64,000 nucleotides of DNA from Calditrichota bacterium (lineage in GTDB: Bacteria > Electryoneota > RPQS01), in assembly GCA_020637395.1 (NCBI GenBank), contig JACJWA010000003.1:10380-74379 (forward strand), written 5' to 3'. The position numbers were made by a program, and so were the translations under genes. Shown piece by piece: positions 5,321 to 31,185 of the stretch. How positions within the stretch are numbered: position 1 is the first letter of the stretch; each line of letters starts with the position of its first letter. The notes beneath the pieces were generated by a model. It made no database searches and was not told the origin of the DNA. It saw only the letters and a program-made list of their open reading frames with translations.

Positions 5321-5350
5321 ATATTTGCGAGGGAACTTACTAACAAAGTC

Positions 5351-7496: not shown

Positions 7497-8116
7497 GTTT
7501 CTTGATCTATCGAGTTATTTTTTTGTAGATGATCCAATTCAGCCAGATCTTGCGGAGTGTTCACGCTTCGAAGCAGTTCAAGTTCTGATTCGCTAATTGT
7601 CTTTATCCTTGCGTCTGCTCCAACAAGAAGGTCGCGCATTGCGGCCTTTTCGTTCTGCAGCAATTCCTCAACGCGTCCGATCACCGTTTCCGGAATAAGT
7701 GCAGGTAATGGACTGAAGTGATCGTTGTGAAGTCCTAATACCGCTGGGCGACTGTCAATCTGTAACAAAAGTTTTTGAAGCAAGTCAGGAGTCAGCAAAA
7801 TTTGATCGCATCCGACAACGAGGTAATGAGTGCCGAGCCCGCTTTGCAAGAGTCCGAGCAGTGCCCCGACCGGTCCGCGCTGCTCAACGACATCGGGAAC
7901 AACAATTGGGTTTCCCAAAGAAGCCAAATCAATACCGTGCGCATGACCGACTATCGCTTTCGGAATATTCATGCGGCTCAAAACTCCCCACACGGTTTCA
8001 AGTACTGAAAGGCCGGTCGACAACCGCACCCCGGATTTCGGCGTGCCCATTCGGGAACTCATTCCACCCGCCAGAATCGCGGCGACGACCCCATATTTTT
8101 GCTCAGACGTGGTCAT
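7493..8116 (-). CDS. mobA: molybdenum cofactor guanylyltransferase MobA
   Basis: ORF 7493..8146. AAILAGGMSSRMG nucleotide-binding motif. Start set to ATG 8116, preceded by AGGAGA; 4-nt overlap with moaC. Confidence 0.8.
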   Translation of the reverse strand: MTTSEQKYGVVAAILAGGMSSRMGTPKSGVRLSTGLSVLETVWGVLSRMNIPKAIVGHAHGIDLASLGNPIVVPDVVEQRGPVGALLGLLQSGLGTHYLVVGCDQILLTPDLLQKLLLQIDSRPAVLGLHNDHFSPLPALIPETVIGRVEELLQNEKAAMRDLLVGADARIKTISESELELLRSVNTPQDLAELDHLQKNNSIDQET

Positions 8117-8314
8117 ATCTCCTACCAATATAGCAATTCCTTGCAATCCCCCAATTGTTGAACATTAGAATAATTTCGCATCATTAGAACACATGTGGAG
8201 GAGGTTAGAAATGAAGCACCGTGGCTTCTTAGTAGGCTATTCGAGGTACGAAACATTCAACTAATAAAAAAGAAAATATATATTTATCTATTTTGGATTT
8301 TTTACTCCAAAGCA

Positions 8315-8343
8315 TTGACACGCCCACCAATATAATATATATT
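8315..8343 (+). promoter_or_regulatory. candidate sigma70-type promoter of the Rrf2-moaA-nar operon
   Basis: TTGACA (8315-8320), 17-nt spacer, TATATT (8338-8343), 27 nt before the ATG at 8370. An AAAAGA-N8-TCTTTT inverted repeat (8350-8369) lies between the -10 and the start codon. Confidence 0.4.
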
Positions 8344-8369
8344 CGGATAAAAAGATACAATACTCTTTT

Positions 8370-8813
8370 ATGTTGTTTTCACATTCAGCGGCATATGCGG
8401 TTCGAGCACTCACCTGGCTGGCCTGTCAGCCCAAGAACAGCCGCTGGTTGGCAAATGTGGTCGCAACTCAGGAGGGTATCCCTCTGCCCTATCTCAGCAA
8501 AGTCCTCGGAGTGCTGAAATCGCAGGGGTTAGTTTCTTCAATTCGCGGCCCCAACGGTGGATACACTCTTACTCAGGCACCGGACACGATCACGCTTCTT
8601 ATGATATCAGAAATGTTCGACACAGAGAAGAAACTTAGCTCGTGTGTTCTGGCCTACGGTGAATGCGGCAAAACCACGCAGTGCCCGTTCGAACAGCTTT
8701 GGGAGAATTCGCGATCTGTGGTTCGAAATCTTCTCGAATCCACAACGATTGGAACGCTTGCCAGTATCAGCCTTAAGTCAGCAAATTCAGACATACCGAA
8801 TTCAAAATCATAA
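8370..8813 (+). CDS. Rrf2-family regulator, NsrR/IscR-like (three-Cys cluster site)
   Basis: MLFSHSAAYAVRAL wHTH; CVLAYGECGKTTQC spacing typical of Fe-S Rrf2 proteins. First gene of the nar/ytfE operon. Confidence 0.8.
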   Translation: MLFSHSAAYAVRALTWLACQPKNSRWLANVVATQEGIPLPYLSKVLGVLKSQGLVSSIRGPNGGYTLTQAPDTITLLMISEMFDTEKKLSSCVLAYGECGKTTQCPFEQLWENSRSVVRNLLESTTIGTLASISLKSANSDIPNSKS

Positions 8814-8822
8814 AGTACAAAC

Positions 8823-9839
8823 TTGGAACTGTTAGCCGGAAATAAACCTGTGTCCCAACTGATCGACCGCTTCGGCAGGATACACGACTACTTGAGGATT
8901 TCCGTCACCGATCGCTGCAACCTTCGATGCACCTACTGCATGCCGGTTGAAGGTGTAGACTGGAAACCCTCCGGTCTACTTCTGGAGACCGAAGAGATTG
9001 TGCGCGTCGCCCGCTTAATGGCAGAAATGGGTGTCAAGAAGATCCGGCTGACCGGGGGAGAGCCTACAACACGCAAAGATCTCCCATTACTCGTTTCACG
9101 GCTTGTCGAAGTTCCCGGAATCGAGAAAGTATGTCTTACGACGAACGGTGTGCTCTTTTCAAAGTACGCTCAGGACCTGAAACGTGCCGGATTGTCAAGC
9201 GTAAATATCAGTCTCGACAGCCTGAATCGGGAAAACTTCATCCGAATCGCCCGCCGCGACCTACTTACCAGCGTACTCAAATCATTGAATTCCGCTCTCG
9301 AGTGTGACTACCAACAAGTCAAGCTCAATATGGTAGTAATGGCTGGTATTAACGAACACGAGATGACCGATTTCGTCGAACTTGCTCGCACGAAACCGGT
9401 AAATGTCCGATTCATTGAATACATGCCGTTCAAAGGGAATCGCTGGGATCCTTTCGGCGTTGTAACATACAACGAAATGCGCTCGCGACTCGAAGCGAGA
9501 TATGATCTTCGGGCTCTTCCGGATACATTCATAAGCAACCGTGTGGCGGAGGACTTCATGATCCCTGGATTTCTCGGAAAAGTGAGTTTCATCGCATCGA
9601 TGTCGAATAGCTTTTGCTCGACCTGCTCGCGGCTGCGCTTAACTGCCGACGGAGCGCTTAAGGCTTGCCTCTTTTTCCCTGCGCAAGTTCACCTTCGCGA
9701 GAGCCTTCGGGCAAATCAGTCCGATGAAGTCATCCGGCGTCTGATCGCAGATGCAGTGCTCAGTAAACCGAAAGGTCATCCCGATCCTTCGGAACTCGAG
9801 CAACTAAATGACCTCAGCATGATCGAAATTGGAGGATAA
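8823..9839 (+). CDS. moaA: GTP 3',8-cyclase MoaA (radical SAM)
   Basis: CNLRCTYCMP radical-SAM motif and C-terminal CSTCSRLRLTADG auxiliary cluster motif. TTG start per ORF track; GTG 8850 is an alternative. Confidence 0.9.
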   Translation: MELLAGNKPVSQLIDRFGRIHDYLRISVTDRCNLRCTYCMPVEGVDWKPSGLLLETEEIVRVARLMAEMGVKKIRLTGGEPTTRKDLPLLVSRLVEVPGIEKVCLTTNGVLFSKYAQDLKRAGLSSVNISLDSLNRENFIRIARRDLLTSVLKSLNSALECDYQQVKLNMVVMAGINEHEMTDFVELARTKPVNVRFIEYMPFKGNRWDPFGVVTYNEMRSRLEARYDLRALPDTFISNRVAEDFMIPGFLGKVSFIASMSNSFCSTCSRLRLTADGALKACLFFPAQVHLRESLRANQSDEVIRRLIADAVLSKPKGHPDPSELEQLNDLSMIEIGG

Positions 9840-9843
9840 CGCA

Positions 9844-10365
9844 ATGCCCGCGTCGCAACACGATCATTCAACAACCACAACTTCCGGCAGAGTAGTCGCG
9901 ATTTCGACGAGTATTCGCCGTGGCATTCCCAAATCAAATCGCGAAGAAGTGCGCCTGATAGAAAACTGGGGTCTTGAAGGCGACATTCATGCCGGAGAGT
10001 GGCACAGGCAAGTCAGCTTGCTCGCCATGGAAAGCGTCCAGAAAATGCGGGCCAAAGGAGTGCCCGTTCGCCCGGGTGCTTTTGCCGAGAATATCACAAC
10101 CGAATTTATCGATATCCCCAATCTTACTATCGGTACGCGAGTATCAATTGGGGAATCCGAACTAGAAATCACGCAAATCGGGAAAGAGTGCCATCAAAAG
10201 TGTGCGATCTACTATCGTGCCGGTGATTGCGTAATGCCTCGCGAGGGTATATTCGCAATCGTGAAACGGGGCGGCGTTATTAGGGTAGGCGACGATGTAG
10301 TAGTTCACACAATCCCGAGTGAACATAATCATGTCCAAATCGCACTTTGCGCGGTGAATTCATGA
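9844..10365 (+). CDS. MOSC domain-containing protein
   Basis: ORF 9829..10365 with ATG at 9844. GLEGDIHAGEWHRQVSLL and KECHQKCAIYYRAGDCVMPREGIF resemble the MOSC beta-barrel. ATGA overlap with the next gene. Confidence 0.65.
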   Translation: MPASQHDHSTTTTSGRVVAISTSIRRGIPKSNREEVRLIENWGLEGDIHAGEWHRQVSLLAMESVQKMRAKGVPVRPGAFAENITTEFIDIPNLTIGTRVSIGESELEITQIGKECHQKCAIYYRAGDCVMPREGIFAIVKRGGVIRVGDDVVVHTIPSEHNHVQIALCAVNS

Positions 10366-11165
10366 AGCACATCGTTCTTCTGTCCGCACTATTCTTGTTT
10401 CTCTCCATGAGAAACTCAGTCGCACAAGACTCGGTTTCCGTAACGACAACCGCTGATTTGACCCTATCAGCGGACACAACCGTTCAGGTCGACGTGGCGG
10501 CCCAAAGCTATGCTCAAAAGTGCGCGGGATGTCACACAATCGGGGGCGGAAAACTGACGGGACCGGATCTCCTTCCGACTCGCGCGTGGCCCAAATCGGA
10601 CCTCTCCGCAAAAATAAAACTGATGGAACCGCGAGTTGGCCCCCTGACACAGGAGGACATCGATCAGTTTGTAGACTTGCTTCACGATTCAAGGGCGCAG
10701 GAGCGCGTACACATCGCGCAAGAACTGGCCGCAAAAGCTGTAGCAGCGAAACTCGAACCTGCGTCAAAAAGCGAAGGGCAAAAGCTATTCGAGGGCACTA
10801 CCTCGTTAGCGAATGGAGGCATCGCTTGCATCACTTGTCACACGACAGGCGCACAGGGCGGCACATTTGGTCCTGACCTTACGTCACTGCATACCCGGTT
10901 GAGCAAGGTCGCAATGATATCGGCAATACAACAGACTCAGTACAAGGTAATGTCTGGAACCTATCAAAATCATCCGATTACAGCGCAAGAGGCCGTGCAC
11001 CTTGCAGAGTACCTCACTTCACCGGAGTCGATGCCTAAATCAAGTGCTGAGAAGAATGTGCCTGTTCTTGGCGCTTCGCTCGGAGTCATTGGATTCTTGG
11101 TTGTGGTCGGACTTTACAGAAAGCGCTCGCGCAACAACTTTTCGCGTCAACGAGGCATGGCATGA
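10362..11165 (+). CDS. membrane-anchored dihaem c-type cytochrome (NarC-like position upstream of narG)
   Basis: Signal peptide [15 protein letters not shown]; two CXXCH (CAGCH, CITCH); C-terminal hydrophobic anchor [22 protein letters not shown] overlap with narG. Confidence 0.8.
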
Positions 11166-14100
11166 GCTGGATTACAGATCTCTTCGACCCCAAGCAGCGG
11201 GAATGGGAAGACCTCTATAGAAACCGCTGGTCGTATGATAAGATTATTCGCAGCACACATGGTGTTAATTGCACGGGCGGTTGCAGTTGGAATATTTACG
11301 TCAAGAACGGCATTGTCACGTGGGAAATGCAAGCTCTTGACTATCCAATAATCGACAAGGATATTCCTCCCTACGAACCTCGCGGCTGTCAACGCGGCAT
11401 CTCGTACTCTTGGTATATCTATAGTCCCATTCGGGTGAAGTATCCCTACGTTCGCGGCGCCCTGATTGATTTGTGGCGCGACGCAAAACGCAATTTCCCC
11501 GACAACCCGGTTGCGGCATGGGACTCTATTGTTTCAAATCCGGAATCCCGCGCTCGCTATCATTCCGCACGTGGCAAAGGCGGATTGCGGCGGTTTAGCT
11601 GGGACGAAGCGCTTGAGATTCTCTCTGCGGCAAATATTCACACGGTGCAGAAGCACGGCCCAGACCGCATCGCTGGCTTCTCGCCGATTCCCGCAATGTC
11701 GATGGTAAGTTACGCCGCCGGAGCGCGCTTCATGCAGCTCATGGGCGGCGTTTCACTTTCGTTCTATGATTGGTACTGCGATTTGCCTCCAGCTTCTCCT
11801 GAGATTTGGGGCGAGCAGACGGACGTCGCAGAAAGTGCGGATTGGTTCAAATCGGGATTTATTGCTGTCGTTGGATCAAATGTCTTGATGACGCGAACTC
11901 CCGACGCGCATTTTCTTGTTGAAGCTCGGCACCGCGGAGCAAAAGTCGTCGTCTTTTCGCCGGATTTCTCGATGGTTTCCAAAGTCTCGGACGAGTGGGT
12001 GCCGATTCATCAGGGACAGGATTCTGCGTTCTGGATGTCCGTGGGGCATACGATTTTACGCGAGAATTATGTCGAACGAAGTGTTCCTTACTTCACGGAC
12101 TACCAGAAACGTTTTACCGACGGTCCGATTCTCGTACAGTTGCACAAACAAGCTGACGGAAGCTTTAAGCCTGGCCAATACCTGCGTGTGTCTCAAGTCG
12201 ATACAATCACTAGGATCGACAAGCCTGATTGGAAATTCTTGATGATAGATTCCAAGAACGGCGAGCTTCGTCTTCCGCAAGGAACCATCGGACATCGCTG
12301 GCAAGACAAGAAGGGTCAATGGAATCTAAAACTCGAAGACGAGCGCACGGGTGAAGAGTTTGATCCGATTTTGACGTTGGATGCAGGCAAAGACGAACTG
12401 GTCACGGTAAGTATTCCTGAGTTCTCTTCCGAAAAGGGCGAAGGACGGATCGAGTCCAAGGTTCCTGTCCGCAAGATTCAGTCGTCGCAGGGCGATATCT
12501 ATGTGACAACAGCTTTTGAATTGTTGATCGCAAGTTACGGTGTAAGCCGCAACTCGACCAAGCCGATTCCATACGACGAGCCCGATCATTGCTATACGCC
12601 GGCATGGCAAGAAAAATTTACGGGCGTGTCCGGTGATGTCGTACTTCGCTTCGCTCGCAACTGGGCGACCACTGCTGAAAAGACAAATGGCCGCTGCAGC
12701 GTTATCATAGGCGCTGGTGTGAACCATTGGTACCATAATAATCTGATTTACAGATCGATTATCTCGAGCCTCATGTTATGCGGCTGTGTCGGGAAAAATG
12801 GCGGCGGACTCAACCACTATGTTGGACAGGAGAAACTTGTTCCGCAGACATCGTGGGCGCCGATCGCGTTCGGTACCGATTGGTCCGCACCTCCTCGTTT
12901 ACAAAACACGCCATCCTTCCACTATGTCCACTCGGATCAATGGCGCTACGACGGAAAGATGGACGAAGTCTGCCCTGTCGCGGATCGTTCGCACTCAATG
13001 GCTTCCGGTCACACAATTGACCGGCAAATTCAGGCAGTGCGCGCGGGGTGGCTTCCTTCGTATCCCCAATTCGATCAATCCTCGATTGAAGTGGCTCGTG
13101 AAGCGCGGCAAAACGGTGCCGAAGATGAAGCGTCAATTATCAAGAATGTCGTTGACCGTTTGAAATCTAAGAAACTCAAGTTTGCAGTCGAGGATCCCGA
13201 CTCTCCGAAGTGTTTCCCGAGAATCTTCTATATCTGGCGGGGCAATGCGTTGATGTCTTCAGCGAAAGGACATGAGTATTTCCTAAAGCACTATCTCGGG
13301 ACACACACGAATCTCATCGCTACGGAGCGCGCGAAGGAACTCGTCGAGGATGTGACATGGCACGATAAGGTCGAACTCGGCAAAATGGACTTGGTAGTTG
13401 ACCTCAACTACCGAATGGACTCATCTGCACTCTATTCGGACATCATTTTGCCGGCGGCAACGTACTATGAGAAGAATGATCTCAACTCGACGGACATGCA
13501 CAGTTTCATTCATCCGTTGCAGGCCGCCGTTCCTCCTTGTTGGGAATCCAAAAGCGACTGGGATATATTCCGCGAGATCGCGCGTGCAACATCGAAACTG
13601 GCAGAGAAACACCTCCCGGATCCCGTCGATGATGTCGTGACTGCGCCACTCGCGCACGACACACCGGCTGAAATTGCACAACCGACGGTCAAGGATTGGT
13701 CAAAAGGCGAGTGCGAAGCGATCCCTGGCAAAACGATGCCCGCCATGAAAGTTGTCAAACGCGACTACAAGAATGTCTTTAACAAATTTGTAAGTCTTGG
13801 GCCAAATTTCAGAAACGGGCTCGGCATGCACGGTCTTCAGTTTGAAGTCGCGGACATGTACGATTCCTACATGGAAAATAACCCTACAGAAAAATGGGGC
13901 GGCAAAGAGTACCCCTCATTACGTGAAGATGTTCTGGTTTGCGAAGCGATTTTGAATTTCGCACCCGAGACAAACGGCGAGCTGGCTTTCCGTGCCTACA
14001 AAGCTGAGGCGGTCAAAACTGGAATAGATCACTCGCATGCTGCCGAAAAGACTCGCTCAGTTCGCATTACGTTTGAAGACATCTCAGCCCAACCTCGGAG

Positions 14101-14785
14101 AATTCTTACCACACCATTTTGGACGGGTGTTACTAGCGACAACAGGACCTATTCGGCGTACTGTCAAAATGTGGAAGGAGATATTCCGTGGCGCACGCTT
14201 AGTGGAAGACAGCACTACTATCTCGACCATGAAACGTATATCGCATACGGAGAAAACCTTCCCACGTACAAACCTCGTCCGGCGCGAGAAATTCTCGGTG
14301 ATTTGAAAATGTCAAAACCGGCCGGTGGAACACTGGTGCTGAACTATTTGACCCCCCACGGGAAATGGTCCATCCACTCAACTTACGGCGATACTCTTAG
14401 AATGCGCACGCTCAGCCGAGGGCACGATCCAATTTGGATCAATGATAAGGACGCATTGCTTCTTGGCGTAGATGACAATGATTGGGTTGAAATCTTCAAT
14501 GATCACGGAGTGGTGTGCACATGCGCGAACGTCAGCGCGCGAATCCCTCGAGGCATGTGTTTTATTTACCACTCTCCGGAACGTACAATCGGTATTCCAA
14601 AGTCGCCCGAACGCGGAAACCGCCGAGCTGGTGGTCACAACAGCCTTACGCGCGCGCGGCTGAAGCCACTCTTTATGATCGGCGGATATGGACAATTTAC
14701 ATATGCCTTCAATTACTGGGGTCCTCCCGGAGTGAATCGGGATACTTTTGTGGCAGTCAAGAAACTCGATAAAATAGACTATTAG
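11162..14785 (+). CDS. narG: respiratory nitrate reductase alpha subunit NarG
   Basis: 1207 aa. N-terminal [26 protein letters not shown] (FS0 HxxxCxxxC motif) is near-identical in pattern to E. coli NarG. No Tat signal. Confidence 0.97.
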
Positions 14786-14794
14786 AGGTGAACA

Positions 14795-16285
14795 ATGGAC
14801 ATTAGAGCACAAGTCTCAATGGTGTTTCACCTCGACAAATGTATCGGATGTCATACGTGCAGCATCGCATGTAAGAACATCTGGACTGACCGACCGGGCG
14901 CAGAATACATGTGGTGGAACAACGTCGAAACGAAGCCGGGAACGGGTTTTCCGCACCGTTGGGAAGATCAGGAGCGCTATAAAGGCGGCTGGAAACTAAA
15001 CGGAAGTAAATCGCTTCAGTTGAAATCGCAGTCCAAATTGAGCGGGCTGCTGAAGCTCTTCTACAACCCAAATCAACCGGGACTTGAAGATTACTACGAA
15101 CCGTGGACGTACGAGTACGAGAATCTCTTTGACGCTCCAGAGGGCGACGATCAGCCGACAGCCAGACCGGTATCTCAGATTACCGGTGAAGAAATGAAGA
15201 TCGAGGCTGGTCCGAATTGGGATGACGATCTGTCAGGCTCTCCCGTCTACGCCGCGAATGATGTAAACTACGACGGACTTACTCCAGAGGAACGGCAGCA
15301 ACTGTTCGAGATTCAGCGAGTCGCGTTCATGTATCTGCCGCGAATTTGTAATCACTGCGCCAACCCGAGTTGTGTGGCATCTTGTCCATCAGGCGCACTT
15401 TACAAACGCGGCGAAGATGGAATCGTGCTGATCAATCAGGACGTTTGCCGCGGCTGGCGCGCCTGCGTCTCAGCTTGCCCGTACAAGAAGATCTACTATA
15501 ATTGGGTAACAGGAAAATCTGAGAAGTGCATTCTGTGTTACCCACGTCTTGAAACCGGACAGGCTCCCGCTTGCTTCCATTCCTGCGTGGGCCGAATTCG
15601 CTATCTTGGCGTTCTTCTATACGACGCAGATCGTATCGAAACAGCAATGAAAACGGCTGATCCGTTGTTGGTCGAGGCGCAGCGTGACGTAATCTGCGAC
15701 CCTAATGATGAAAATGTCATCGCAAGTGCGCGCGCAAATGGAATCAGCGATGAGTTTCTTGAAGCTGCGCGCAAATCTCCCGTGTACAAATACGTCGTTA
15801 AGTGGAAACTTGCTCTTCCGTTACACATCGAGTATCGAACTATGCCGATGCTCTTCTATGTCCCGCCGCTCTTGCCGGTTATGGGAAAAGACGGCGATCA
15901 ACCGTATGATCATGCGGATCAAACGTTGTTTAGCTCTTTGGACAAAGCAAGACTTTCGATCAAATACATGGCTCGCCTCTTCAGTGCTGGAAACGAAGCA
16001 GTGGTTACGGCCGCCCTCAGAAAACTAATGGCCGTCAGATACTACAAACGTATGCAGGATGTCGGAGATGTGGACGATGACAATGTTCGCAGAATCATGC
16101 GCGAAGCTGGCACGACACCCGAAGAAGCGGAAGAAATCTACAGTCTGACTGCTATCCCGACTGTGCACAAGCGGTACGTCCTTCCGCCACTGCAACGAGA
16201 GGAAGCAATCGGTTCGCTCTGCGACGTTCAGGATTGCAAAGGCAGTTGCGGCTACATCAAGCAAGCCGGCGCGGGGAGGAAATAG
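14795..16285 (+). CDS. narH: respiratory nitrate reductase beta subunit NarH
   Basis: 496 aa. Ferredoxin-type Cys groups (CIGCHTCSIACK, CNHCANPSCVASCP, CRGWRACVSACP, CILCYPR). Confidence 0.95.
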   Translation: MDIRAQVSMVFHLDKCIGCHTCSIACKNIWTDRPGAEYMWWNNVETKPGTGFPHRWEDQERYKGGWKLNGSKSLQLKSQSKLSGLLKLFYNPNQPGLEDYYEPWTYEYENLFDAPEGDDQPTARPVSQITGEEMKIEAGPNWDDDLSGSPVYAANDVNYDGLTPEERQQLFEIQRVAFMYLPRICNHCANPSCVASCPSGALYKRGEDGIVLINQDVCRGWRACVSACPYKKIYYNWVTGKSEKCILCYPRLETGQAPACFHSCVGRIRYLGVLLYDADRIETAMKTADPLLVEAQRDVICDPNDENVIASARANGISDEFLEAARKSPVYKYVVKWKLALPLHIEYRTMPMLFYVPPLLPVMGKDGDQPYDHADQTLFSSLDKARLSIKYMARLFSAGNEAVVTAALRKLMAVRYYKRMQDVGDVDDDNVRRIMREAGTTPEEAEEIYSLTAIPTVHKRYVLPPLQREEAIGSLCDVQDCKGSCGYIKQAGAGRK

Positions 16286-16286
16286 T

Positions 16287-16823
16287 ATGTCTCGATTTAT
16301 CGTCGGTAACAATTTCGAGCAACTTGCTGTACTGCTCAGCCATCCTCAAGTCAACTATCTGGAGCTTGCCCAGGCTCTCGCGGAAGCCGTGGACTCAAAA
16401 CACGCAACCCGGCACATCAAAGCTTTTCTTAAGGAAATAGAATCGCTCTCGATCACTGATCTTCAAGAGCTGTATTCGAAGACCTTTGATTTGAATCCGG
16501 TTACGTCACCCGCCTTAAGTGTCCACCTCTTTGGAGTGGAAAGTTTCAAGAGGTCGCACTTGATGGTCGGGCTGCTCGACATGTATCGCAAGACTGCGTA
16601 TGTTTCCACAGGCGAGTCTGCCGACCACATGAGCACAGTAATTGGGTTTCTACCATGCGCTTCTGTGGTCGACCGCAAAGAACTTTCGACATACGTAATT
16701 TTACCCGGGCTGATGAAAATGGCGGAGTTTCTGGCTTCGAAAAACAATCCATTCGCGCATCTACTCAAAGCGGCTTGCGAAATCGTTGAGACCGAGGCAG
16801 GAAAGGAGGCCGTCTATGCTTGA
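16287..16823 (+). CDS. narJ: nitrate reductase Mo-cofactor assembly chaperone NarJ
   Basis: 178 aa, TorD/NarJ-like (LQELYSKTFDLNP...ADHMSTVIGFL); in the narJ position between narH and narI. Confidence 0.8.
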   Translation: MSRFIVGNNFEQLAVLLSHPQVNYLELAQALAEAVDSKHATRHIKAFLKEIESLSITDLQELYSKTFDLNPVTSPALSVHLFGVESFKRSHLMVGLLDMYRKTAYVSTGESADHMSTVIGFLPCASVVDRKELSTYVILPGLMKMAEFLASKNNPFAHLLKAACEIVETEAGKEAVYA

Positions 16824-18132
16824 GCTGTTCCTGTTCGTTGGCCTGCCGTACGCGGCCACGATCGTCTGTATCGTCGGAACCGTCCGGCGATTCAAATATG
16901 ATCGCTATGGAATCACGACGCTGTCTTCTCAATTTCTTGAAGGCAAGAAAATGCTTTGGGGTTCCGCTCCTTGGCACATCGGAATATTGACAGTATTCTT
17001 GGGTCATTTTGTCGCTTTTCTTGTTCCGGGTGTGTGGCAACGGCTGATGGCAATTCCTTCGCTGCTTACCATAGCGGAGACTCTTGGCATGGCCGCAAGC
17101 CTTATTTGCCTTGTCGGTTTGATAGTACTCATATTTCGTCGCGCTACTACAGCACGGTTGCAGAAGACAACAAAGCTTGCCGATTTCATAGTTGCATTGC
17201 TCTTGCTTGGGCAAATCGCTTTGGGGTTAATGATCGCCGGTGGTTTCCGGTGGGGTGCAAGCTGGTCCACCGGCACCTTAGCCCCGTACATTTGGAGCCT
17301 CATAACACTCGGCCCCGACATCTCGGTCATTCGCGACATGCCCGTAATTATTCAGGCGCATATTGTCGGTGCGTGGTTAATTGTCTTTATTTTCCCGTTT
17401 ACTCGGTTGATTCATATGATCACGGTTCCCATACACTACTTGATGCGATCGCCGCAAAAAGTAGTATGGACAAACCCGCGCCGCAATGCGAGTGCTGTTG
17501 TCGCCCGGGCGGACCAGAACTCCCGCAGACACTTTATCAAAGCCTCTCTCGGGTTGAGCGCCGCCGGATTGCTGCTCTCCGTCGGAGTGCTTGACAAACT
17601 TGGTCGTTTTTTTCAAATGCCCGGTTTGCATCATGACGAGGAAGCAGATCTACTTGAAACTCGGCTGCGGCGGTTGCAGTTAACTGCCGAAGAGAAACAA
17701 CTCGAATTAGAGCGCTTGCGCAGCAATGAAATCTACGTCTCCAAGCTTTCCGACCTGAATGGATCGACGGGAAAGTATTTCATTGACTATGCAATGCGAC
17801 CCGGCCTTGCTTTTAGATCAGAAGACGGTTGGCCGATGCTGCTCTCTGCCAAATGCACGCATCTCGGCTGCACCGTCGGAAATCAGGTTGACGCAAATGG
17901 CAAGATACTGTGTCCGTGCCATGTCTCGTATTTCGACGTAAAGACTGGATTGCCAAATGAAGGCGCTCCGGCGAAAGCTCCGCTCGACCGCATCGCGTGG
18001 ATTGTTCGCGACGAACAGGGTGCGGAGATCGCGACGGAAAGTTCGCGTGGTTCCCGGACCGGCCGAATTGATCCGCAAATGGCTGAATACTATTCCCTCT
18101 ACATCGTAAGATCACTCTCGGCGGAGGCATGA
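16816..18132 (+). CDS. narI: fusion protein: nitrate reductase gamma subunit NarI (dihaem b) + internal twin-Arg anchor helix + Rieske [2Fe-2S] domain
   Basis: ORF 16786..18132 with ATG 16816 (8-nt overlap with narJ). NarI His ligands in PWHIG/LGHFV and QAHIVG/RLIHM; NSRRHFIKASLGLSAAGLLLSVGVL; Rieske boxes CTHLGC (17854) and CPCH (17911). One continuous frame. Confidence 0.85.
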   Translation: MLELFLFVGLPYAATIVCIVGTVRRFKYDRYGITTLSSQFLEGKKMLWGSAPWHIGILTVFLGHFVAFLVPGVWQRLMAIPSLLTIAETLGMAASLICLVGLIVLIFRRATTARLQKTTKLADFIVALLLLGQIALGLMIAGGFRWGASWSTGTLAPYIWSLITLGPDISVIRDMPVIIQAHIVGAWLIVFIFPFTRLIHMITVPIHYLMRSPQKVVWTNPRRNASAVVARADQNSRRHFIKASLGLSAAGLLLSVGVLDKLGRFFQMPGLHHDEEADLLETRLRRLQLTAEEKQLELERLRSNEIYVSKLSDLNGSTGKYFIDYAMRPGLAFRSEDGWPMLLSAKCTHLGCTVGNQVDANGKILCPCHVSYFDVKTGLPNEGAPAKAPLDRIAWIVRDEQGAEIATESSRGSRTGRIDPQMAEYYSLYIVRSLSAEA

Positions 18133-19229
18133 TGAAGAGATCGTTTGTCGCGTCCACATTTGATTTTCTTTCCTCACGGCTTCCCATTGAGAAGTTAAGC
18201 TTTAAGCACATGGTGACGGAGAAGGATGTTCCCGTTCATCGCATGTCGTGGGGATACTACGTCGGGGGATTGGCGCTCTTCTTTTTCATCATCCAAGTAG
18301 TGACAGGGCTGATGCTCCTGTTTTATTACGAACCAACGGTCAGTGAAGCGCACGAGTCCGTGGAGTACATCACCCATTTTGTCACGATGGGTGCACTCGT
18401 CAGAAATCTTCACGCGTGGTCAGCGTCGTTCATGATCTTCTGTGTCATCACTCACATGCTAACGTCGCTCGCAATGAAGGCGTTTGCAAAGCCGCGTGAG
18501 ATTACATGGATCGCGGGTGTCCTGTTGCTGCTTGTTACTTTCGGATTCGGATTCACCGGCTATCTTCTTCCTTGGAATCAAATCGCAGTAAATGCGACCA
18601 AGGTTGGATTAGCCTCAATCGATCAGGTGGGACAGTATTTGCCGGCGGCTCTCTCTCACCTCGCTGAGGATGTACGCGTGACGATTCAGGGTGCGCCTGC
18701 AATCGGTCAGGCGACACTGAGTCGCTTCTTCGCGTTGCATGTTGTAATTCTTCCGCTGCTCGTACTTGGAGTGATCGGGCTGCATTTGTTGTCAGTTCAA
18801 CTTCACGGAATGAGTCCAGGAATCGAGGAGAAGCCCGTCCGCAAAGAGAAGTTTTTCCCGTTTTTCATTCTGAAGGACTTCAAAGAGTGGGGAATCGCGT
18901 TTCTCGTCGTCTTTGTGCTCGCACTTTGTTTGCCCTTCGATTCACTCTTTCCATACCCGCTGCTCGAACCCTACAACGCTCTCGGATCCACTCCGGACGG
19001 TATCAAGCCTGAATGGTATTTCTACTTCGTCTATTACCCAATGGAGCTGCTTCCCTTCTGGATCATTATTGTCGTCATGACTACGGCGAATCTCGGGCTA
19101 TTTGCGGCGCCCTGGATATTCAAAGGTGCGAGTCACAAATTTATGCGCTGGATTGCATCGGCGATTGCGGCGTATTTGATTATCATGACTCTGTTTGGCG
19201 AAAGCATTTATCACGCCATTAAGGGATAA
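18129..19229 (+). CDS. cytochrome b of a Rieske/cyt b (bc1/b6f-type) complex, b6 core plus subunit-IV part in one protein
   Basis: 366 aa. His pairs in LHAWSASFMIFCVITH and LHVVILPLLVLGVIGLH; TGYLLPWNQ; Qo-site PEWY motif (PEWYFYF). ATGA overlap with the upstream gene. Confidence 0.9.
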   Translation: MMKRSFVASTFDFLSSRLPIEKLSFKHMVTEKDVPVHRMSWGYYVGGLALFFFIIQVVTGLMLLFYYEPTVSEAHESVEYITHFVTMGALVRNLHAWSASFMIFCVITHMLTSLAMKAFAKPREITWIAGVLLLLVTFGFGFTGYLLPWNQIAVNATKVGLASIDQVGQYLPAALSHLAEDVRVTIQGAPAIGQATLSRFFALHVVILPLLVLGVIGLHLLSVQLHGMSPGIEEKPVRKEKFFPFFILKDFKEWGIAFLVVFVLALCLPFDSLFPYPLLEPYNALGSTPDGIKPEWYFYFVYYPMELLPFWIIIVVMTTANLGLFAAPWIFKGASHKFMRWIASAIAAYLIIMTLFGESIYHAIKG

Positions 19230-19234
19230 TAGCT

Positions 19235-19810
19235 ATGGTCAAGTTTGTTTTTATTGTGGCGCTGGTTTTCATTGGGAACTGCTTCGCTTATCCGGAGTTC
19301 CAGCGTTTTTCACAGGAGAATTCGGGCCGTCCTATAAACTGCGCCATGTGCCACGTCAATGGTGATGGACCCGAAGGCGCTTCGCGGGGCCAAATCGGAA
19401 GTCTCACTCCCGTCGAGCTGAACAGACTAAATGCCGCTCGCGGCGCCTTCGCACCCGGCATGCCCGTCGAAAGCCCAATTCTAAACGCGTTTGGTAACAA
19501 TATCATCAGGAAAATCGGCAAAACGAAATTCCTCGAGTTACGGGCGCACCCCGAGCAACTTGCCGAAGCTTACGGTTTCCAAAGCGATCTCGATGAAGAT
19601 GGAATCCCCGATGCTCAGGAATACTTGGATGGTACAAATCCTCTTAATCGCTCGCACGGCAATCCATGGAAGCTATTTGTTCACAATCTAAACCAATACA
19701 AACTGCACATATTCTTGATCATTCTCGCGACGGTTGCGGGCTTCTATGGCCTGAGCAACCTGCTGCACGGATTCGCAATTCAAGCCGAATCACATGAAGC
19801 GAGAAATTAG
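19235..19810 (+). CDS. monohaem c-type cytochrome, C-terminally membrane anchored
   Basis: Signal peptide; single CAMCH; acidic DLDEDGIPDAQEYLDGTNPLN (thrombospondin-type-3-like Ca-binding motif); C-terminal helix IFLIILATVAGFYGL. Confidence 0.7.
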   Translation: MVKFVFIVALVFIGNCFAYPEFQRFSQENSGRPINCAMCHVNGDGPEGASRGQIGSLTPVELNRLNAARGAFAPGMPVESPILNAFGNNIIRKIGKTKFLELRAHPEQLAEAYGFQSDLDEDGIPDAQEYLDGTNPLNRSHGNPWKLFVHNLNQYKLHIFLIILATVAGFYGLSNLLHGFAIQAESHEARN

Positions 19811-19834: not shown

Positions 19835-21361
19835 ATGCAAGAAAATAGTAAGGCAATTCAAGTACTGATCCTCAATACGCTCGCGTTCACAGTCTGTTTC
19901 GCGGCGTGGATGATGAACGGTGTGTTGATTACCTACCTGGTGGACAATGGAGTGTTTCATTGGGACAAGGCTCAGATGGGATGGTTGATTGGCATACCCG
20001 TCTTGACGGGATCAATCACCCGGCTGCCTGTCGGAATTCTCACGGATAAATATGGCGGTCGTGTCGTCTACAGCGTGCTAATGCTCCTGGCCGCCGTTCC
20101 CATGTTCTTGGTGAGCTATGCCAACAACTTCACACAATTCATGTTGGCAGGACTCGGCTTTGGATTGACCGGAGCCTCGTTCGCGGTCGGAATTGCTTAT
20201 ACGTCTGTGTGGTTCAAAAAAGAGAGACAAGGCACGGCGTTAGGTATTTTCGGAGCAGGAAACGCAGGAGCGGCGCTGACAAGCATGGGAGCTCCATTTG
20301 TATTGCGTTGGCTTACGGATGGCGGCACGAATCTCGAGGGTTGGCGAATGCTCCCGAGAATGTACGCTGGAGGACTTGTCGCTATGGCCGTATTGTTTAT
20401 CCTCTTTTCACACACGAAACTTGCCGGGCACAGTCAGGGATACACTCTTAGGCAGCGCCTTGAACCGCTAAAACACATGAGAGTTTGGAGATTCGGTGCC
20501 TACTACTTTTTGGTGTTTGGCGGATTTGTCGCACTTGCACAGTGGCTGATCCCGTACTATGTCAGCGTCTATTCAGTGACAATTGCGACGGCAGGTTTGT
20601 TGGCTGCAATCTTTAGTTTGCCCTCCGGCGTAATTCGCGCGCTGGGAGGATGGATGTCCGACAGATTTGGCGCACGCAAAGTCATGTATTGGGTACTCGG
20701 GGTGTGTGTGATATGCTGCGGTCTCTTGATCATTCCCAAAATGGACATCCAGTCACCGGGACAAGGCGTAATCGCGGCGAAAGGGGGAACAGTCACCGAA
20801 GTCTCAGATTCCGCTATTTCCGTGGACGGAACACCTTACAATCTTAGGCCTAAGCCGCAAGGTTGGCGAGAACACCTTGATCAAGCAACCTATGTGATTC
20901 CGGCGGGCACATTTTGGCAAGAACCGGTCGTACAAGTCGGCGACAAAGTAAAGAAGAAGGAATTACTCGCCAAAGGCGTAACGCATCTCTACTTTCAAGC
21001 GAACATCTGGATCTTCACGGTACTCGTGTTTATCGTGGGAATCATGATGGGCATCGGTAAGGCCGCCGTATATAAACACATTCCGGACTATTTCCCCGAC
21101 GATGTTGGCGTAGTCGGAGGAATTGTCGGCGTCGTCGGTGGATTAGGTGGGTTCTTCTGTCCGATTATTTTCGGATACTTATTGAAAGGAACGGGTATCT
21201 GGACAACGTGTTGGATGTTCTTTGCAGCTTTTAGCGCCTGGTGTTTGTGGTGGATGCACCGAGTTATTCAACGAATGATGCGCGAAAAACAGCCCGTATT
21301 GATGCGGCAGATTGAGGATCATCACTCTCTGCCAATAACCACGGCAGTTCCTTCAAACTAA
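19835..21361 (+). CDS. narK: NarK-type nitrate/nitrite MFS transporter with ~87-aa loop insertion
   Basis: 12 predicted helices; NNP signature-like GxxxNxG (GIFGAGNAGAAL). Insertion between helices 9 and 10 (aa ~302-388). Confidence 0.85.
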   Translation: MQENSKAIQVLILNTLAFTVCFAAWMMNGVLITYLVDNGVFHWDKAQMGWLIGIPVLTGSITRLPVGILTDKYGGRVVYSVLMLLAAVPMFLVSYANNFTQFMLAGLGFGLTGASFAVGIAYTSVWFKKERQGTALGIFGAGNAGAALTSMGAPFVLRWLTDGGTNLEGWRMLPRMYAGGLVAMAVLFILFSHTKLAGHSQGYTLRQRLEPLKHMRVWRFGAYYFLVFGGFVALAQWLIPYYVSVYSVTIATAGLLAAIFSLPSGVIRALGGWMSDRFGARKVMYWVLGVCVICCGLLIIPKMDIQSPGQGVIAAKGGTVTEVSDSAISVDGTPYNLRPKPQGWREHLDQATYVIPAGTFWQEPVVQVGDKVKKKELLAKGVTHLYFQANIWIFTVLVFIVGIMMGIGKAAVYKHIPDYFPDDVGVVGGIVGVVGGLGGFFCPIIFGYLLKGTGIWTTCWMFFAAFSAWCLWWMHRVIQRMMREKQPVLMRQIEDHHSLPITTAVPSN

Positions 21362-21374
21362 CCGGACTACGCAC

Positions 21375-22922: not shown

Positions 22923-22951
22923 AAACTAAAACAAAATAGGTGAAAAACAGG

Positions 22952-25864: not shown

Positions 25865-25868
25865 CGTG

Positions 25869-27966: not shown

Positions 27967-28182
27967 CTACTCTCCTTCAAGCGCGCGCAAAATGTCAAGT
28001 GTATCACGTGCTTCGTCTTCGTCAATAATGGCAAGGGCGAATCCTGCATGAACCAAAAGATAGTCACCAATGGACGCGTCCGGAACAAGCGACAAATCCA
28101 CGTTCAATGTAATGCCTGAACTCTCCGCGGTAGCGTAATTGTCACTTTTTTTGATGAGTCGCATCGGTACAGCGAGACACAT
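27967..28182 (-). CDS. hypC: hydrogenase assembly chaperone HypC
   Basis: ORF 27967..28236 with ATG 28182, giving the canonical MCLAVPM N-terminus. Confidence 0.88.
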   Translation of the reverse strand: MCLAVPMRLIKKSDNYATAESSGITLNVDLSLVPDASIGDYLLVHAGFALAIIDEDEARDTLDILRALEGE

Positions 28183-28186
28183 GAAG

Positions 28187-30532: not shown

Positions 30533-30535
30533 AGT

Positions 30536-31174: not shown

Positions 31175-31185
31175 GGTTTGTAGTT

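What the first reader, a model, noticed from the sequence alone, without database searches (positions are those of the whole stretch)
10362..19810. A complete Rieske/cytochrome b module plus two anchored c-type cytochromes embedded inside a narGHJI operon
Seen: the genes run as dihaem cyt c (CAGCH, CITCH; ATGA overlap into narG), narG, narH, narJ, NarI::Rieske, a 366-aa cytochrome b, a monohaem cyt c (CAMCH), then narK x2. All junctions are overlaps or gaps of 25 nt or less, which implies one transcript. The cytochrome b has a b6-type 13/14-residue His spacing and a PEWY Qo motif, and carries core and subunit-IV parts in one chain. Established: Thermus thermophilus has a narCGHJIK operon whose first gene is a cytochrome c needed for active Nar (recalled from memory). 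Rieske/cyt b complexes normally pass quinol electrons to c-type cytochromes. Inference: this locus encodes a hybrid quinol-oxidising assembly. A Q-cycle-type bc module and the NarI quinol dehydrogenase would be physically and genetically coupled. This could mean a Nar-bc supercomplex, or a branch point feeding nitrate reduction and periplasmic c-type acceptors from one quinol site. No nir/nor/nos or oxidase genes lie in the window to receive the cytochrome c electrons.
Basis: partly seen in the sequence, partly recalled or inferred. Interest (0 to 1): 0.75.

Follow-up and report, generated by a model that had tools for sequence, protein, structure and literature searches.

The report
Nitrate reductase hard-wired to bc complex
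A widespread operon of uncultured bacteria, which I could not find described in the searchable literature, fuses the membrane anchor of respiratory nitrate reductase to the Rieske protein of a cytochrome bc complex; this probably lets nitrate respiration run through a Q cycle and conserve about twice the usual energy.

Summary
Window 10362-19810 (+) encodes, tightly packed: a dihaem cytochrome c (NarC), NarG, NarH, NarJ, a 438-aa NarI::Rieske fusion, a 7-helix b6-like cytochrome b, and a 191-aa membrane-anchored monohaem cytochrome c. All cofactor ligands are intact.

The same seven genes lie in the same order in 54 of 80 species-representative genomes from more than ten phyla. The other 26 are cut by contig ends, and none has lost an interior gene. 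At least 550 protein clusters carry the full-length fusion. Every named one comes from a MAG and is annotated only as "nitrate reductase gamma subunit". The nar and bc parts co-evolve as one unit.

The best explanation is an obligate Nar-bc supercomplex. Quinol is oxidised at the Qo site, and electrons pass Rieske -> c-haems -> NarI haems -> NarH -> NarG. That would give 4 H+/2e- instead of 2. This mechanism has been proposed for Streptomyces Nar1 with its bcc complex; here it would be hard-wired.

The electron path is inferred, not shown. A branch-point role remains possible.

I found no description of the fusion in ten literature searches. I rate it a new variant of a known kind, interest about 0.7.

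The 191-aa cytochrome has no family and no known fold.

The parts
8315..8343 (+). Best sigma-70-like promoter match (TTGACA-17-TATATT, 11/12), upstream of rrf2. Possible start of the 13-gene unit.
   Evidence: The total number of promoter-like sites is at chance level, so this is a lead only.
8370..8813 (+). Rrf2-family regulator, a recurrent neighbour of the operon in other phyla.
   Evidence: TIGR00738, 102 bits > 73.
8823..10365 (+). moaA (8823-9839) and a MOSC-domain gene (9829-10365). They belong to molybdenum-cofactor supply and are packed directly in front of narC.
10362..11165 (+). NarC: dihaem c-type cytochrome of 267 aa with a signal peptide, CAGCH and CITCH motifs, and a C-terminal TM anchor.
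   Evidence: Haem domain 2 is 36% identical to Thermus NarC. Haem domain 1 is 47% identical to the cytochrome c fused to Rieske in the nar-less locus L092.
11162..14785 (+). NarG, catalytic Mo-bisMGD subunit. It has the FS0 motif HGVNCTGGC (11258-11284) and no twin-arginine signal, so it faces the cytoplasm.
   Evidence: 59% identical to Thermus NarG against 47% to E. coli NarG.
14795..16285 (+). NarH, the four-cluster Fe-S subunit.
   Evidence: TIGR01660, 642 bits > 524.
16287..16823 (+). NarJ-like chaperone.
   Evidence: narJ 34 bits, below the cut-off of 59. 30% identical to Thermus NarJ, E = 9e-19. Orthologues in L001/L002 carry PF02613.
16816..17463 (+). NarI domain of the fusion: 5 TM helices, with haem ligands H54, H64, H182 and H200.
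   Evidence: Foldseek TM-score 0.80 to E. coli NarI.
17524..17592 (+). Internal twin-arginine motif (SRRHFIK; RR at 17524-17529), followed by the sixth TM helix (17536-17592), which takes the chain back to the periplasm.
   Evidence: TAT_signal. R237/R238 are invariant in 52 sequences..
17632..17721 (+). Conserved 30-residue helix between the anchor and the Rieske head. It is a hallmark of this bc lineage and is also present in unfused relatives.
17728..18132 (+). Rieske 2Fe-2S domain, with box I CTHLGC (17854-17871) and box II CPCH (17911-17922).
18129..19229 (+). Cytochrome b: 366 aa, 7 TM helices, unsplit b6 + subunit IV. Haem ligands are H95/H109 and H204/H219; PEWY is at 19008-19019. It has no haem-cn cysteine.
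19235..19810 (+). c191: monohaem c-type cytochrome with a signal peptide, mature N-terminus YPEF..., CAMCH, the motif DLDEDG (19586-19603) and a C-terminal TM anchor. It is the presumed c1/f equivalent of this bc lineage.
19835..22922 (+). Two NarK-family nitrate/nitrite MFS transporters (19835-21361 and 21375-22922).
22940..23650 (+). ScdA/RIC di-iron protein (repair of iron centres under NO stress), the last gene of the packed unit.
4544..8146 (-). Divergent TauE-moeA-moaC/mogA-mobA genes, also for molybdenum-cofactor supply. They recur next to the operon in other genomes.

Best explanation
The locus encodes one obligate membrane supercomplex. It joins a Thermus-type, cytoplasm-facing nitrate reductase (NarC-NarGH-NarI) to a complete Rieske/cytochrome b complex through a NarI::Rieske polypeptide.

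Proposed mechanism:
1. Menaquinol is oxidised at the Qo site of cytochrome b.
2. One electron goes to the Rieske cluster, then to the anchored c-haems (c191, then the two haems of NarC), and then into the periplasm-side haem bD of the NarI domain.
3. From there it crosses the membrane via haem bP to NarH and NarG, where nitrate is reduced in the cytoplasm.
4. The second electron recycles through haems bL/bH to a Qi site, completing a Q cycle.

The net yield would be 4 H+/2e-, against 2 for classical NarGHI.

The five NarI helices would be inserted first. The internal twin-arginine motif would then export the folded Rieske domain, as in the polytopic actinobacterial QcrA (recalled from memory).

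What is shown: gene content, the fusion, intact cofactor ligands, strict synteny and co-evolution. What is inferred: the topology, the electron path, the Q cycle and the stoichiometry.
For: 1. The fusion is real and under selection.
- At least 550 protein clusters (90% identity) match it full-length at E <= 1e-80, and all listed ones carry PF02665 + PF00355.
- In 52 aligned sequences the four NarI haem histidines, the RR motif and both Rieske boxes are invariant.

2. Synteny is strict. 54/80 species genomes hold narC-G-H-J-I::Rieske-cytb-c191 in order, 26 are cut by contig ends, and 0 show interior loss.

3. The nar and bc parts evolve as one unit. Pairwise-distance matrices correlate at r = 0.70-0.88, with 0/300 permutations reaching the observed value.

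4. Cytochrome b keeps what a Q cycle needs. In 75 orthologues the four haem histidines are invariant, PEWY is present in 74/75, and the Qi-side Q224/H226 are conserved in 75/75 and 74/75.

5. The topology is coherent. NarI runs N-out to C-in, is followed by the cytoplasmic RR motif and a sixth TM helix, and ends in a periplasmic Rieske head.

6. 'Rosetta-stone' fusions link the three partners pairwise: NarI::Rieske here; cyt c::NarI (P0265 in L093); NarC-domain-1-like cyt c::Rieske (P0251 in L092). NarI::Rieske fusions also exist with other Rieske and cytochrome b lineages (P0255/L095, P0279/L097, P0311), which suggests repeated fusion.

7. The E. coli Q-site Lys86 is hydrophobic in 76/81 fusions.

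8. No nir/nor/nos/nrf gene recurs within +-10 kb in 80 loci. The recurrent neighbours are NarK, Mo-cofactor genes, Rrf2 and RIC, so the two c-cytochromes have no conserved external client.

9. There is experimental precedent. Thermus NarC binds NarI and is needed for active Nar (PMC7694296). Streptomyces Nar1 needs, and co-purifies with, the bcc-aa3 supercomplex; its authors propose QcrC -> haem bD of NarI with a working Q cycle and 4 H+/2e- (PMC7931247).
Against: - No experiment or structure bears on this family. The electron path is inferred from architecture alone.
- The Q-site test is weak. Lys86 is also absent from Thermus NarI (Arg) and from a Streptomyces NarI (Tyr). The fusions share with Thermus an invariant Glu five positions later, which could belong to a different quinol site. 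NarI may therefore still oxidise quinol itself.
- In Thermus, NarC is thought to carry electrons outward, from NarI to periplasmic Nir/Nor (PMC7694296). That is the opposite direction.
- The same bc module exists without nar genes (L092 near a nosZ-like gene; L094). It can therefore act as a general quinol:cytochrome c reductase and may serve other acceptors here too.
- With E. coli-like potentials, the step from a c-haem to haem bD would be uphill. The real potentials are unknown.
- c191 has no recognisable distal haem ligand, so its redox role is a guess.
- The AlphaFold model has low inter-domain confidence (pTM 0.48).
Confidence: 0.5

Rival explanations
1. Branch-point or dual-output complex. 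NarI still oxidises quinol itself and feeds NarGH as in classical Nar. The attached bc module oxidises quinol in parallel and reduces c191/NarC, which hand electrons to periplasmic reductases encoded elsewhere (Nir, Nor, Nos, Nrf/Hao). On this view the fusion only secures co-assembly and stoichiometry.
For: - The same bc module works without nar genes, once near a nosZ-like gene.
- Thermus NarC is proposed to pass electrons outward to Nir/Nor (PMC7694296).
- The fusions share with Thermus NarI an invariant Glu that may be part of a quinol site.
- One relative has a multihaem cytochrome downstream (L002).
Against: - No nir/nor/nos/nrf genes recur near the operon in 80 loci.
- Co-regulation is already provided by the operon, so parallel function would not explain a strictly conserved translational fusion, nor repeated NarI::Rieske fusions with different Rieske lineages.
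- Lys86 is absent.
Confidence: 0.27
2. Split-electron (bifurcating) complex. Of each quinol oxidised at Qo, the high-potential electron leaves via Rieske and the c-haems to a periplasmic acceptor. The low-potential electron passes from the cytochrome b haems sideways into the NarI haems and on to nitrate, instead of reducing quinone at Qi.
For: - The fusion puts NarI beside cytochrome b in the membrane.
- Non-canonical Rieske/cytochrome b complexes with extra redox partners have been proposed for anammox bacteria (discussed in PMC5600118).
Against: - The Qi-side residues of cytochrome b (Q224, H226) are conserved as strongly as the haem ligands, which argues for a working Qi site.
- No evidence bears on the haem-haem distance between the two membrane proteins.
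- This route would give no energetic gain over classical Nar.
Confidence: 0.08
3. Reverse operation as a nitrite oxidoreductase. Nitrite is oxidised by NarG. Electrons leave via NarI and NarC to c-cytochromes, and the bc module runs backwards for reverse electron flow, as in Nitrobacter-type NXR.
For: - Nitrobacter NXR is said to have a Thermus-like gene cluster with a NarC homologue (PMC7694296).
- NarG-type enzymes are reversible in principle.
Against: - The context is that of nitrate respiration: two NarK transporters, an Rrf2 regulator, an NO-stress RIC protein, and Crp/Fnr regulators in relatives.
- The hosts by record title (Verrucomicrobiota, Obscuribacterales, Hydrogenedentota, Calditrichota and others) are not known nitrifiers, and Ca. 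Obscuribacter was predicted to respire nitrate (PMC4040986).
- The window has no oxidase and no CO2-fixation genes.
Confidence: 0.04
4. Artefact or decaying fusion: the NarI::Rieske reading frame results from an assembly or frameshift error, or the bc genes are relics.
For: None found.
Against: - The same 434-441-aa frame is present in hundreds of independent assemblies.
- All cofactor ligands are invariant.
- Gene lengths are stable across 80 loci.
Confidence: 0.01

Closest known systems
Thermus thermophilus NarCGHJIKT (cytochrome c-containing respiratory nitrate reductase)
   Same: - The operon starts with a membrane-anchored dihaem cytochrome c, followed by narGHJI and two MFS nitrate/nitrite transporters.
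- NarG, NarH and NarI are closer to Thermus (59/59/37% identity) than to E. coli (47/52/33%).
- The second haem domain of NarC is homologous to Thermus NarC.
   Different: - Thermus NarI is a free-standing 225-aa protein, with no Rieske, cytochrome b or third cytochrome in the operon.
- In Thermus the Nar is said to work without, and to substitute for, the bc complex (PMC7694296).
Streptomyces coelicolor Nar1 with the cytochrome bcc-aa3 supercomplex (Falke et al. 2021, PMC7931247)
   Same: A cytoplasm-facing NarGHI depends on, and co-purifies with, a Rieske/cytochrome b complex. The proposed path runs from a dihaem c-type cytochrome to haem bD of NarI with the Q cycle retained, giving 4 H+/2e-.
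   Different: - In Streptomyces the nar and qcr genes are unlinked, the association is loose or variable, and the oxidase is part of the complex.
- Here the coupling is fixed by a gene fusion and a seven-gene operon.
- The bc lineage is different (b6-like 7-TM cytochrome b, c191 cytochrome) and there is no oxidase.
Haloarchaeal and Methanoperedens pNar clusters with Rieske/cytochrome b genes (PMC3509893, PMC4683180)
   Same: Rieske and cytochrome b genes sit inside, or beside, the nar gene cluster. The bc complex is thought to deliver electrons to nitrate reductase.
   Different: In those systems NarG is exported by Tat and acts outside the membrane, NarI is absent, and there is no fusion. Here NarG lacks a Tat signal, NarI is present and fused, and NarK transporters import nitrate.
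Periplasmic Nap coupled to Rieske/cytochrome b (Caldithrix abyssi nap cluster, PMC5317091; Campylobacter/Wolinella Qcr, cited in PMC7931247)
   Same: Nitrate reduction is fed by a bc-type complex, in one case in the same phylum-level lineage as the window's closest named relative.
   Different: The nitrate reductase is different (NapA, periplasmic, non-electrogenic). There is no NarI and no fusion.
Cytochrome b6f and 'green' unsplit Rieske/cytochrome b complexes
   Same: - The N-terminal half of cytochrome b is most similar to cyanobacterial b6 (E = 5e-45).
- It has the H-x14-H spacing in helix D, PEWY and 7 helices in all.
- The Rieske boxes are CTHLGC/CPCH.
   Different: - b6 and subunit IV form one chain.
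- There is no cysteine for haem cn (YVGG instead of CxGG).
- Scores fall below the NCBIfam cut-offs for b6 and every other named cytochrome b family.
- The c-type subunit is neither cytochrome f nor c1.
- The Rieske protein carries an extra 30-residue helix.
Actinobacterial QcrA (polytopic Rieske protein with an internal Tat signal; recalled from memory, not tested)
   Same: A Rieske domain is preceded by several TM helices and an internal twin-arginine motif, which implies combined Sec-type insertion and Tat export.
   Different: In QcrA the preceding helices are part of QcrA itself, not a haem-binding subunit of another enzyme.

Membership tests
Respiratory nitrate reductase NarGHI (cytoplasm-facing nNar) | NarG catalytic subunit of the narG equivalog family, with the N-terminal H-x3-C-x3-C FS0 motif and no functional Tat signal | tested here: met
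   TIGR01580 scores 1537 bits against a cut-off of 1084. HGVNCTGGC lies at 11258-11284 and there is no RR motif in the N-terminus.
Respiratory nitrate reductase NarGHI (cytoplasm-facing nNar) | NarH Fe-S subunit | tested here: met
   TIGR01660 scores 642 bits against a cut-off of 524.
Respiratory nitrate reductase NarGHI (cytoplasm-facing nNar) | NarI dihaem b anchor with four conserved His ligands | tested here: met
   TIGR00351 scores 128.9 bits against a cut-off of 105.6. H54/H64/H182/H200 align with E. coli H56/H66/H187/H205 and are invariant.
Respiratory nitrate reductase NarGHI (cytoplasm-facing nNar) | Quinol-site lysine of NarI (E. coli Lys86) | tested here: not met
   The position is hydrophobic in 76/81 fusions and Arg in 2. 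It is also not Lys in Thermus (Arg) or in a Streptomyces NarI (Tyr), so this feature defines the proteobacterial type only.
Respiratory nitrate reductase NarGHI (cytoplasm-facing nNar) | NarJ chaperone gene between narH and narI | tested here: met
   The position is conserved. The gene is 30% identical to Thermus NarJ (E = 9e-19), and orthologues carry PF02613. The window's own protein is below the NCBIfam cut-off (34 < 59 bits).
Respiratory nitrate reductase NarGHI (cytoplasm-facing nNar) | Quinol:nitrate oxidoreductase activity | not testable with these tools
   Needs biochemistry.
Thermus-type NarCGHJI | Membrane-anchored dihaem cytochrome c encoded first in the operon and homologous to NarC | tested here: met
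   The protein has two CxxCH motifs and a C-terminal TM helix. BLASTP to Thermus NarC gives 36% identity over 86 aa, E = 9e-12, in the second haem domain only.
Thermus-type NarCGHJI | Free-standing NarI of about 225 aa as the last enzyme subunit | tested here: not met
   NarI is fused to a Rieske protein and is followed by cytochrome b and a third cytochrome.
Rieske/cytochrome b complexes (bc1/b6f superfamily) | Rieske protein with CTHLGC...CPCH cluster boxes, a twin-arginine signal and a TM anchor | tested here: met
   The best solved relatives are bc/b6f-type Rieske proteins.
Rieske/cytochrome b complexes (bc1/b6f superfamily) | Cytochrome b with two His pairs on helices B and D and the PEWY Qo motif | tested here: met
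   Invariant in 75 orthologues; PEWY is present in 74/75.
Rieske/cytochrome b complexes (bc1/b6f superfamily) | A cytochrome c1, cytochrome f or other recognised c-type third subunit | tested here: not met
   c191 matches no Pfam or NCBIfam family and no PDB sequence relative among cytochromes. A confident model (pLDDT 90.9) has no Foldseek match at E <= 0.001. Only its position, haem motif and C-terminal anchor resemble c1/f.
Cytochrome b6f subtype | Split b6 + subunit IV, and a Cys (CxGG) for covalent haem cn | tested here: not met
   It is a single 366-aa chain with YVGG at the aligned position. It scores below the b6 cut-off, 187.6 < 325 bits.
Cytochrome bc1 subtype | Eight-helix cytochrome b with 13 residues between the helix-D histidines | tested here: not met
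   It has seven predicted helices and 14 residues between H204 and H219.
Archaeal pNar with Rieske/cytochrome b | Tat-exported NarG and absence of NarI | tested here: not met
   NarG has no Tat motif, NarI is present, and two NarK importers are present.
Q-cycle-coupled Nar (Streptomyces Nar1-bcc model) | Nitrate reduction dependent on an active bc complex, with electron entry at NarI haem bD from a c-type haem | not testable with these tools
   Only architecture supports it here. The model itself comes from PMC7931247.

The most novel reading that the evidence does not exclude
The complex is a two-acceptor, electron-splitting machine. Each quinol oxidised at Qo sends one electron through Rieske and the c-haems to a periplasmic N-oxide reductase. 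The other goes sideways from the cytochrome b haems into the fused NarI haems and on to cytoplasmic nitrate. One quinol site would then drive two steps of denitrification at once.

A second, independent novel reading concerns c191. It may be a new class of c-type cytochrome whose haem is ligated by the alpha-amino group of its processed N-terminus (YPEF...), as in cytochrome f.
Probability: 0.08. Interest if true: 0.9.

Novelty: new variant of a known kind. Interest (0 to 1): 0.72.

Why it matters
Classical Nar conserves 2 H+/2e-. A Nar fed through a Q cycle would conserve 4. That would change the expected growth yields and competitiveness of nitrate reducers in soils, groundwater, lakes and wastewater plants, which is where the carriers were assembled.

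Whether a cytoplasm-facing Nar can take electrons from a bc complex is an open question, raised by genetics and co-purification in Streptomyces. This family offers a natural, stoichiometric, hard-wired version on which the question can be tested directly by structure and inhibitor assays.

There is also an annotation problem. Every named copy is labelled only 'nitrate reductase gamma subunit', and the third cytochrome only 'hypothetical protein'. Metabolic reconstructions therefore miss a complete complex III in more than ten phyla, including the non-photosynthetic sister lineage of Cyanobacteria.

Finally, the fusion is a new case of a haem-b membrane protein followed by a Tat-dependent domain. 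The c191 cytochrome may also represent a new fold.

Tried and rejected
- **Assembly or frameshift artefact.** Rejected: hundreds of independent assemblies show the same frame.
- **c191 as a relative of cytochrome f or c1.**
  - Profile and peptide searches of PDB sequences found no cytochrome relative.
  - Foldseek with a pLDDT-90.9 model found nothing at E <= 0.001.
  - Only a short N-terminal motif resemblance to cytochrome f remains. The cytochrome f sequence was verified.
  - The one marginal profile hit (E = 0.002) is to a segment of a parvulin-type isomerase. I treat it as unexplained.
- **Q-site lysine as a test of whether NarI still oxidises quinol.** Carried out, but inconclusive, because Thermus and Streptomyces NarI also lack it.
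- **Conserved electron acceptors (nir/nor/nos/nrf) beside the operon.** ORF clustering of the flanks of 80 loci found none recurrent.
- **A cultured carrier.** None was seen among 240 listed homologues or 80 genome loci; all are MAGs.
- **Literature.** Ten full-text searches and ten papers opened gave no description of a NarI-Rieske fusion or of this operon. Soo et al. 2017 (Science) and ten Brink et al. 2013 (BBA), which might mention it, are not held.
- **Promoter and terminator scans.** Counts are at chance level, so they neither prove nor disprove a single transcript.
- **AlphaFold model of the fusion.** Inter-domain confidence is low (pTM 0.48), and no multimer prediction was available, so subunit contacts could not be modelled.
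- **Nitrite-oxidoreductase reading.** Rejected on gene context and hosts, but not tested phylogenetically, because no NxrA sequence was on hand.

Full report
**1. What is in the sequence**

On the + strand between 8370 and 23650, thirteen genes are packed with overlaps or gaps of 24 nt or less. They are:
- rrf2, moaA and a MOSC gene;
- narC (10362-11165);
- narG (11162-14785, ATGA overlap with narC);
- narH (14795-16285);
- narJ (16287-16823);
- narI::Rieske (16816-18132);
- cytochrome b (18129-19229, ATGA overlap);
- a 191-aa cytochrome c (19235-19810);
- two narK-type transporters;
- a ScdA/RIC gene.

NarG, NarH and the NarI part all exceed the curated equivalog cut-offs.

The only correction concerns the fusion gene. 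It starts at ATG 16816 (438 aa, as in its homologues), not at the upstream TTG.

NarG has the FS0 motif and no twin-arginine signal. With two NarK genes alongside, the active site faces the cytoplasm.

**2. Anatomy of the fusion**

Residues 1-216 are a complete NarI. It has five TM helices, and its four histidines align with the E. coli haem ligands H56/H66/H187/H205. The predicted fold matches E. coli NarI with a TM-score of 0.80.

After NarI come, in order:
- a basic cytoplasmic linker ending in an invariant SRRxF(L/I)K twin-arginine motif;
- a sixth TM helix;
- a conserved 30-residue helix;
- a Rieske domain with the bc-type boxes CTHLGC and CPCH.

NarI ends in the cytoplasm, and a Rieske anchor starts there, so the fusion is topologically coherent.

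**3. The bc part**

Cytochrome b is a single 7-helix chain corresponding to b6 plus subunit IV. Its N-terminal half is most similar to cyanobacterial b6. It lacks the cysteine for haem cn and falls below the cut-off of every named cytochrome b family.

In 75 orthologues the four haem ligands, PEWY and a Qi-side QxH motif are essentially invariant.

The 191-aa cytochrome (c191) has a signal peptide, one CxxCH motif, a DxDxDG motif and a C-terminal anchor, which is the topology of cytochrome c1 or f. It has no Pfam or NCBIfam family. All database copies are 'hypothetical protein'. A confident model (pLDDT 90.9) has no structural match in the PDB.

**4. Distribution**

- A scan of one genome per species returned 80 loci from MAGs. 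Their submitters labelled them Verrucomicrobiota, Obscuribacterales/Melainabacteria, Hydrogenedentota, Sumerlaeota, Planctomycetota, Acidobacteriota, Bacteroidota, Omnitrophota, Gemmatimonadota, Myxococcota, Eisenbacteria and others.
- 54 of the 80 hold all seven core genes in the same order. 26 are cut by contig ends. None has an interior loss or rearrangement.
- At least 550 protein clusters (90% identity) match a full-length fusion at E <= 1e-80.
- The window itself is 91% identical to a copy labelled 'Calditrichaeota bacterium'. It carries type-IX-secretion sorting domains, which fits that superphylum.
- Pairwise-distance matrices of NarC, NarG, NarI::Rieske, cytochrome b and c191 are correlated (r = 0.70-0.88; 0/300 permutations reach the observed value). 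The module is therefore inherited and transferred as one piece.
- Integrase genes flank it in two relatives.

**5. Relatives that inform function**

The Nar part is of the Thermus type. NarG, NarH and NarI are 59/59/37% identical to Thermus, against 47/52/33% to E. coli.

The bc part is a lineage of its own that also exists without nar genes:
- L094 has cyt c - Rieske (227 aa, same helical linker) - cytochrome b - c191.
- L092 has a cyt c::Rieske fusion - cytochrome b - c191, near a nosZ-like gene. Its cytochrome c part is 47% identical to haem domain 1 of the window's NarC.

Further fusions exist:
- cyt c::NarI (L093);
- NarI::Rieske with unrelated Rieske and cytochrome b lineages (P0255/L095, P0279/L097, P0311);
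- NarI::MFS;
- a NarI-like::multihaem ActA in an alternative complex III operon.

Three partners (a c-type cytochrome, NarI and Rieske) are thus joined pairwise in different genomes. This is the classic signature of proteins that touch each other.

**6. Mechanism**

I propose an obligate supercomplex working in series. Quinol is oxidised at Qo. One electron goes Rieske -> c191 -> NarC -> NarI haem bD -> bP -> NarH -> NarG. The other cycles through bL/bH to Qi.

The bookkeeping per 2e- is as follows:
- 4 H+ appear outside.
- 4 H+ disappear inside: 2 at Qi and 2 in nitrate reduction.

This is twice the yield of classical NarGHI. With menaquinol (-75 mV) and nitrate/nitrite (+430 mV) it is energetically affordable, as Falke et al. 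calculated for Streptomyces (PMC7931247).

Those authors showed that Nar1 needs, and co-purifies with, the bcc-aa3 supercomplex. They proposed exactly this entry of electrons at haem bD. In Thermus, NarC binds NarI and is required for active enzyme (PMC7694296).

Additional, weaker support:
- The E. coli Q-site Lys86 is hydrophobic in 76/81 fusions.
- No periplasmic reductase genes recur next to the operon.

**7. Limits**

Nothing here demonstrates the electron path.

- Lys86 is also missing in Thermus and in a Streptomyces NarI, and an invariant Glu shared with Thermus could form another quinol site.
- Thermus NarC is thought to export electrons.
- The bc module can live without Nar.

A bifurcating variant and a reverse, nitrite-oxidising mode are less likely. 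A single transcript is plausible from spacing and a strong promoter-like site at 8315-8343, but it is untested.

**8. Comparison and novelty**

Known systems each share a part:
- Thermus NarCGHJI has the Nar side.
- Streptomyces Nar1-bcc has the functional idea.
- Haloarchaeal and Methanoperedens pNar clusters have Rieske/cytochrome b genes next to nar, but with an exported NarG and no NarI (PMC3509893, PMC4683180).
- Nap is coupled to Rieske/cytochrome b in Caldithrix and the epsilonproteobacteria (PMC5317091).

None of these has a NarI::Rieske polypeptide, this seven-gene core or the c191 cytochrome. Ten full-text searches found no description. Two likely sources are not held, so prior mention cannot be excluded.

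I class it as a new variant of a known kind: real, widespread and mechanistically interesting.

Noticed in passing
window 19235-19810; alignment A2: c191 has no conserved Met or His that could be the sixth haem ligand. In all 30 aligned sequences the predicted signal-peptidase site is followed directly by a conserved xPEF (mostly YPEF), 17 residues before CxxCH. Mature cytochrome f starts [25 protein letters not shown] (verified from PDB 6rqf_K) and uses the alpha-amino group of Tyr1 as ligand. The resemblance covers a short motif only; the folds differ (all-alpha model against the beta-rich cytochrome f).
   Followed up: partly
window 19586-19603 (c191 residues 118-123 and following): An invariant DxDxDG...E...GT motif gives a weak TSP3_bac / EF-hand-like match. 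This suggests a Ca2+ site in the periplasmic domain of c191. A marginal profile match (E = 0.002) of residues 52-101 to a parvulin-type isomerase segment is unexplained.
   Followed up: no
L092 9001-11995; L094 8576-10897: The same bc lineage (Rieske with helical linker, 7-TM cytochrome b, c191) occurs without nar genes. In L092 it appears as a cyt c::Rieske fusion about 8 kb from a nosZ-like gene. In L094 it appears as cyt c - Rieske - cytochrome b - c191 after fumarase and Sdh_cyt genes. This looks like an unrecognised type of complex III.
   Followed up: partly
P0265/L093, P0289, P0291, P0255/L095, P0279/L097, P0311: Thermus-like NarI proteins are fused to many partners: an N-terminal cytochrome c, a C-terminal MFS transporter, and at least three different kinds of Rieske domain (one with the motif CQHLGC...CCCH). 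This points to repeated, independent fusions.
   Followed up: partly
P0313; L099 7012-15776: A NarI-like dihaem-b domain is fused to a multihaem ActA-like cytochrome at the head of an alternative complex III operon (ActB-like Mo/Fe-S protein, NrfD/ActD), with no narGH nearby.
   Followed up: no
window 24792-36452 (- strand): A NAD-linked bidirectional [NiFe] hydrogenase cluster lies here. It is HoxEFUYH-like (2Fe-2S thioredoxin-like, Nuo51-like, NuoG-like, small and large subunits), with hypB, hypE, hypD, hypF and two ORFs without a family (30536-31174, 31186-31638).
   Followed up: partly
window 4544-10365: Molybdenum-cofactor genes surround the operon: TauE-like, moeA, moaC-mogA fusion and mobA on the - strand; moaA and MOSC on the + strand. 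The same genes recur next to the operon in other phyla.
   Followed up: partly
L003/L004 17231-18256; L001 43-1323: Tyrosine-recombinase (phage integrase) genes lie directly beside the operon in a 91%-identical relative and in an Obscuribacterales genome. This fits transfer of the module as a mobile island. The window has hypB at the equivalent place.
   Followed up: no
window about 38000 onward: G+C rises from about 0.50-0.52 (1-37 kb) to about 0.56-0.58 (38-64 kb). The right half encodes a PAS/His-kinase hybrid (37774-41229), an aldehyde dehydrogenase, an LRR protein, and two proteins with type-IX-secretion sorting domains (48772-51009; 55842-58937, an S8 peptidase).
   Followed up: no
window 44450-47428 (+) and 45008-47362 (-): A 992-aa ORF without any Pfam family overlaps a 784-aa ORF on the opposite strand. 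Which strand is coding was not resolved.
   Followed up: no
window 51391-51463 (+): This is the only Rfam match in the window, a tRNA gene (74 bits).
   Followed up: no
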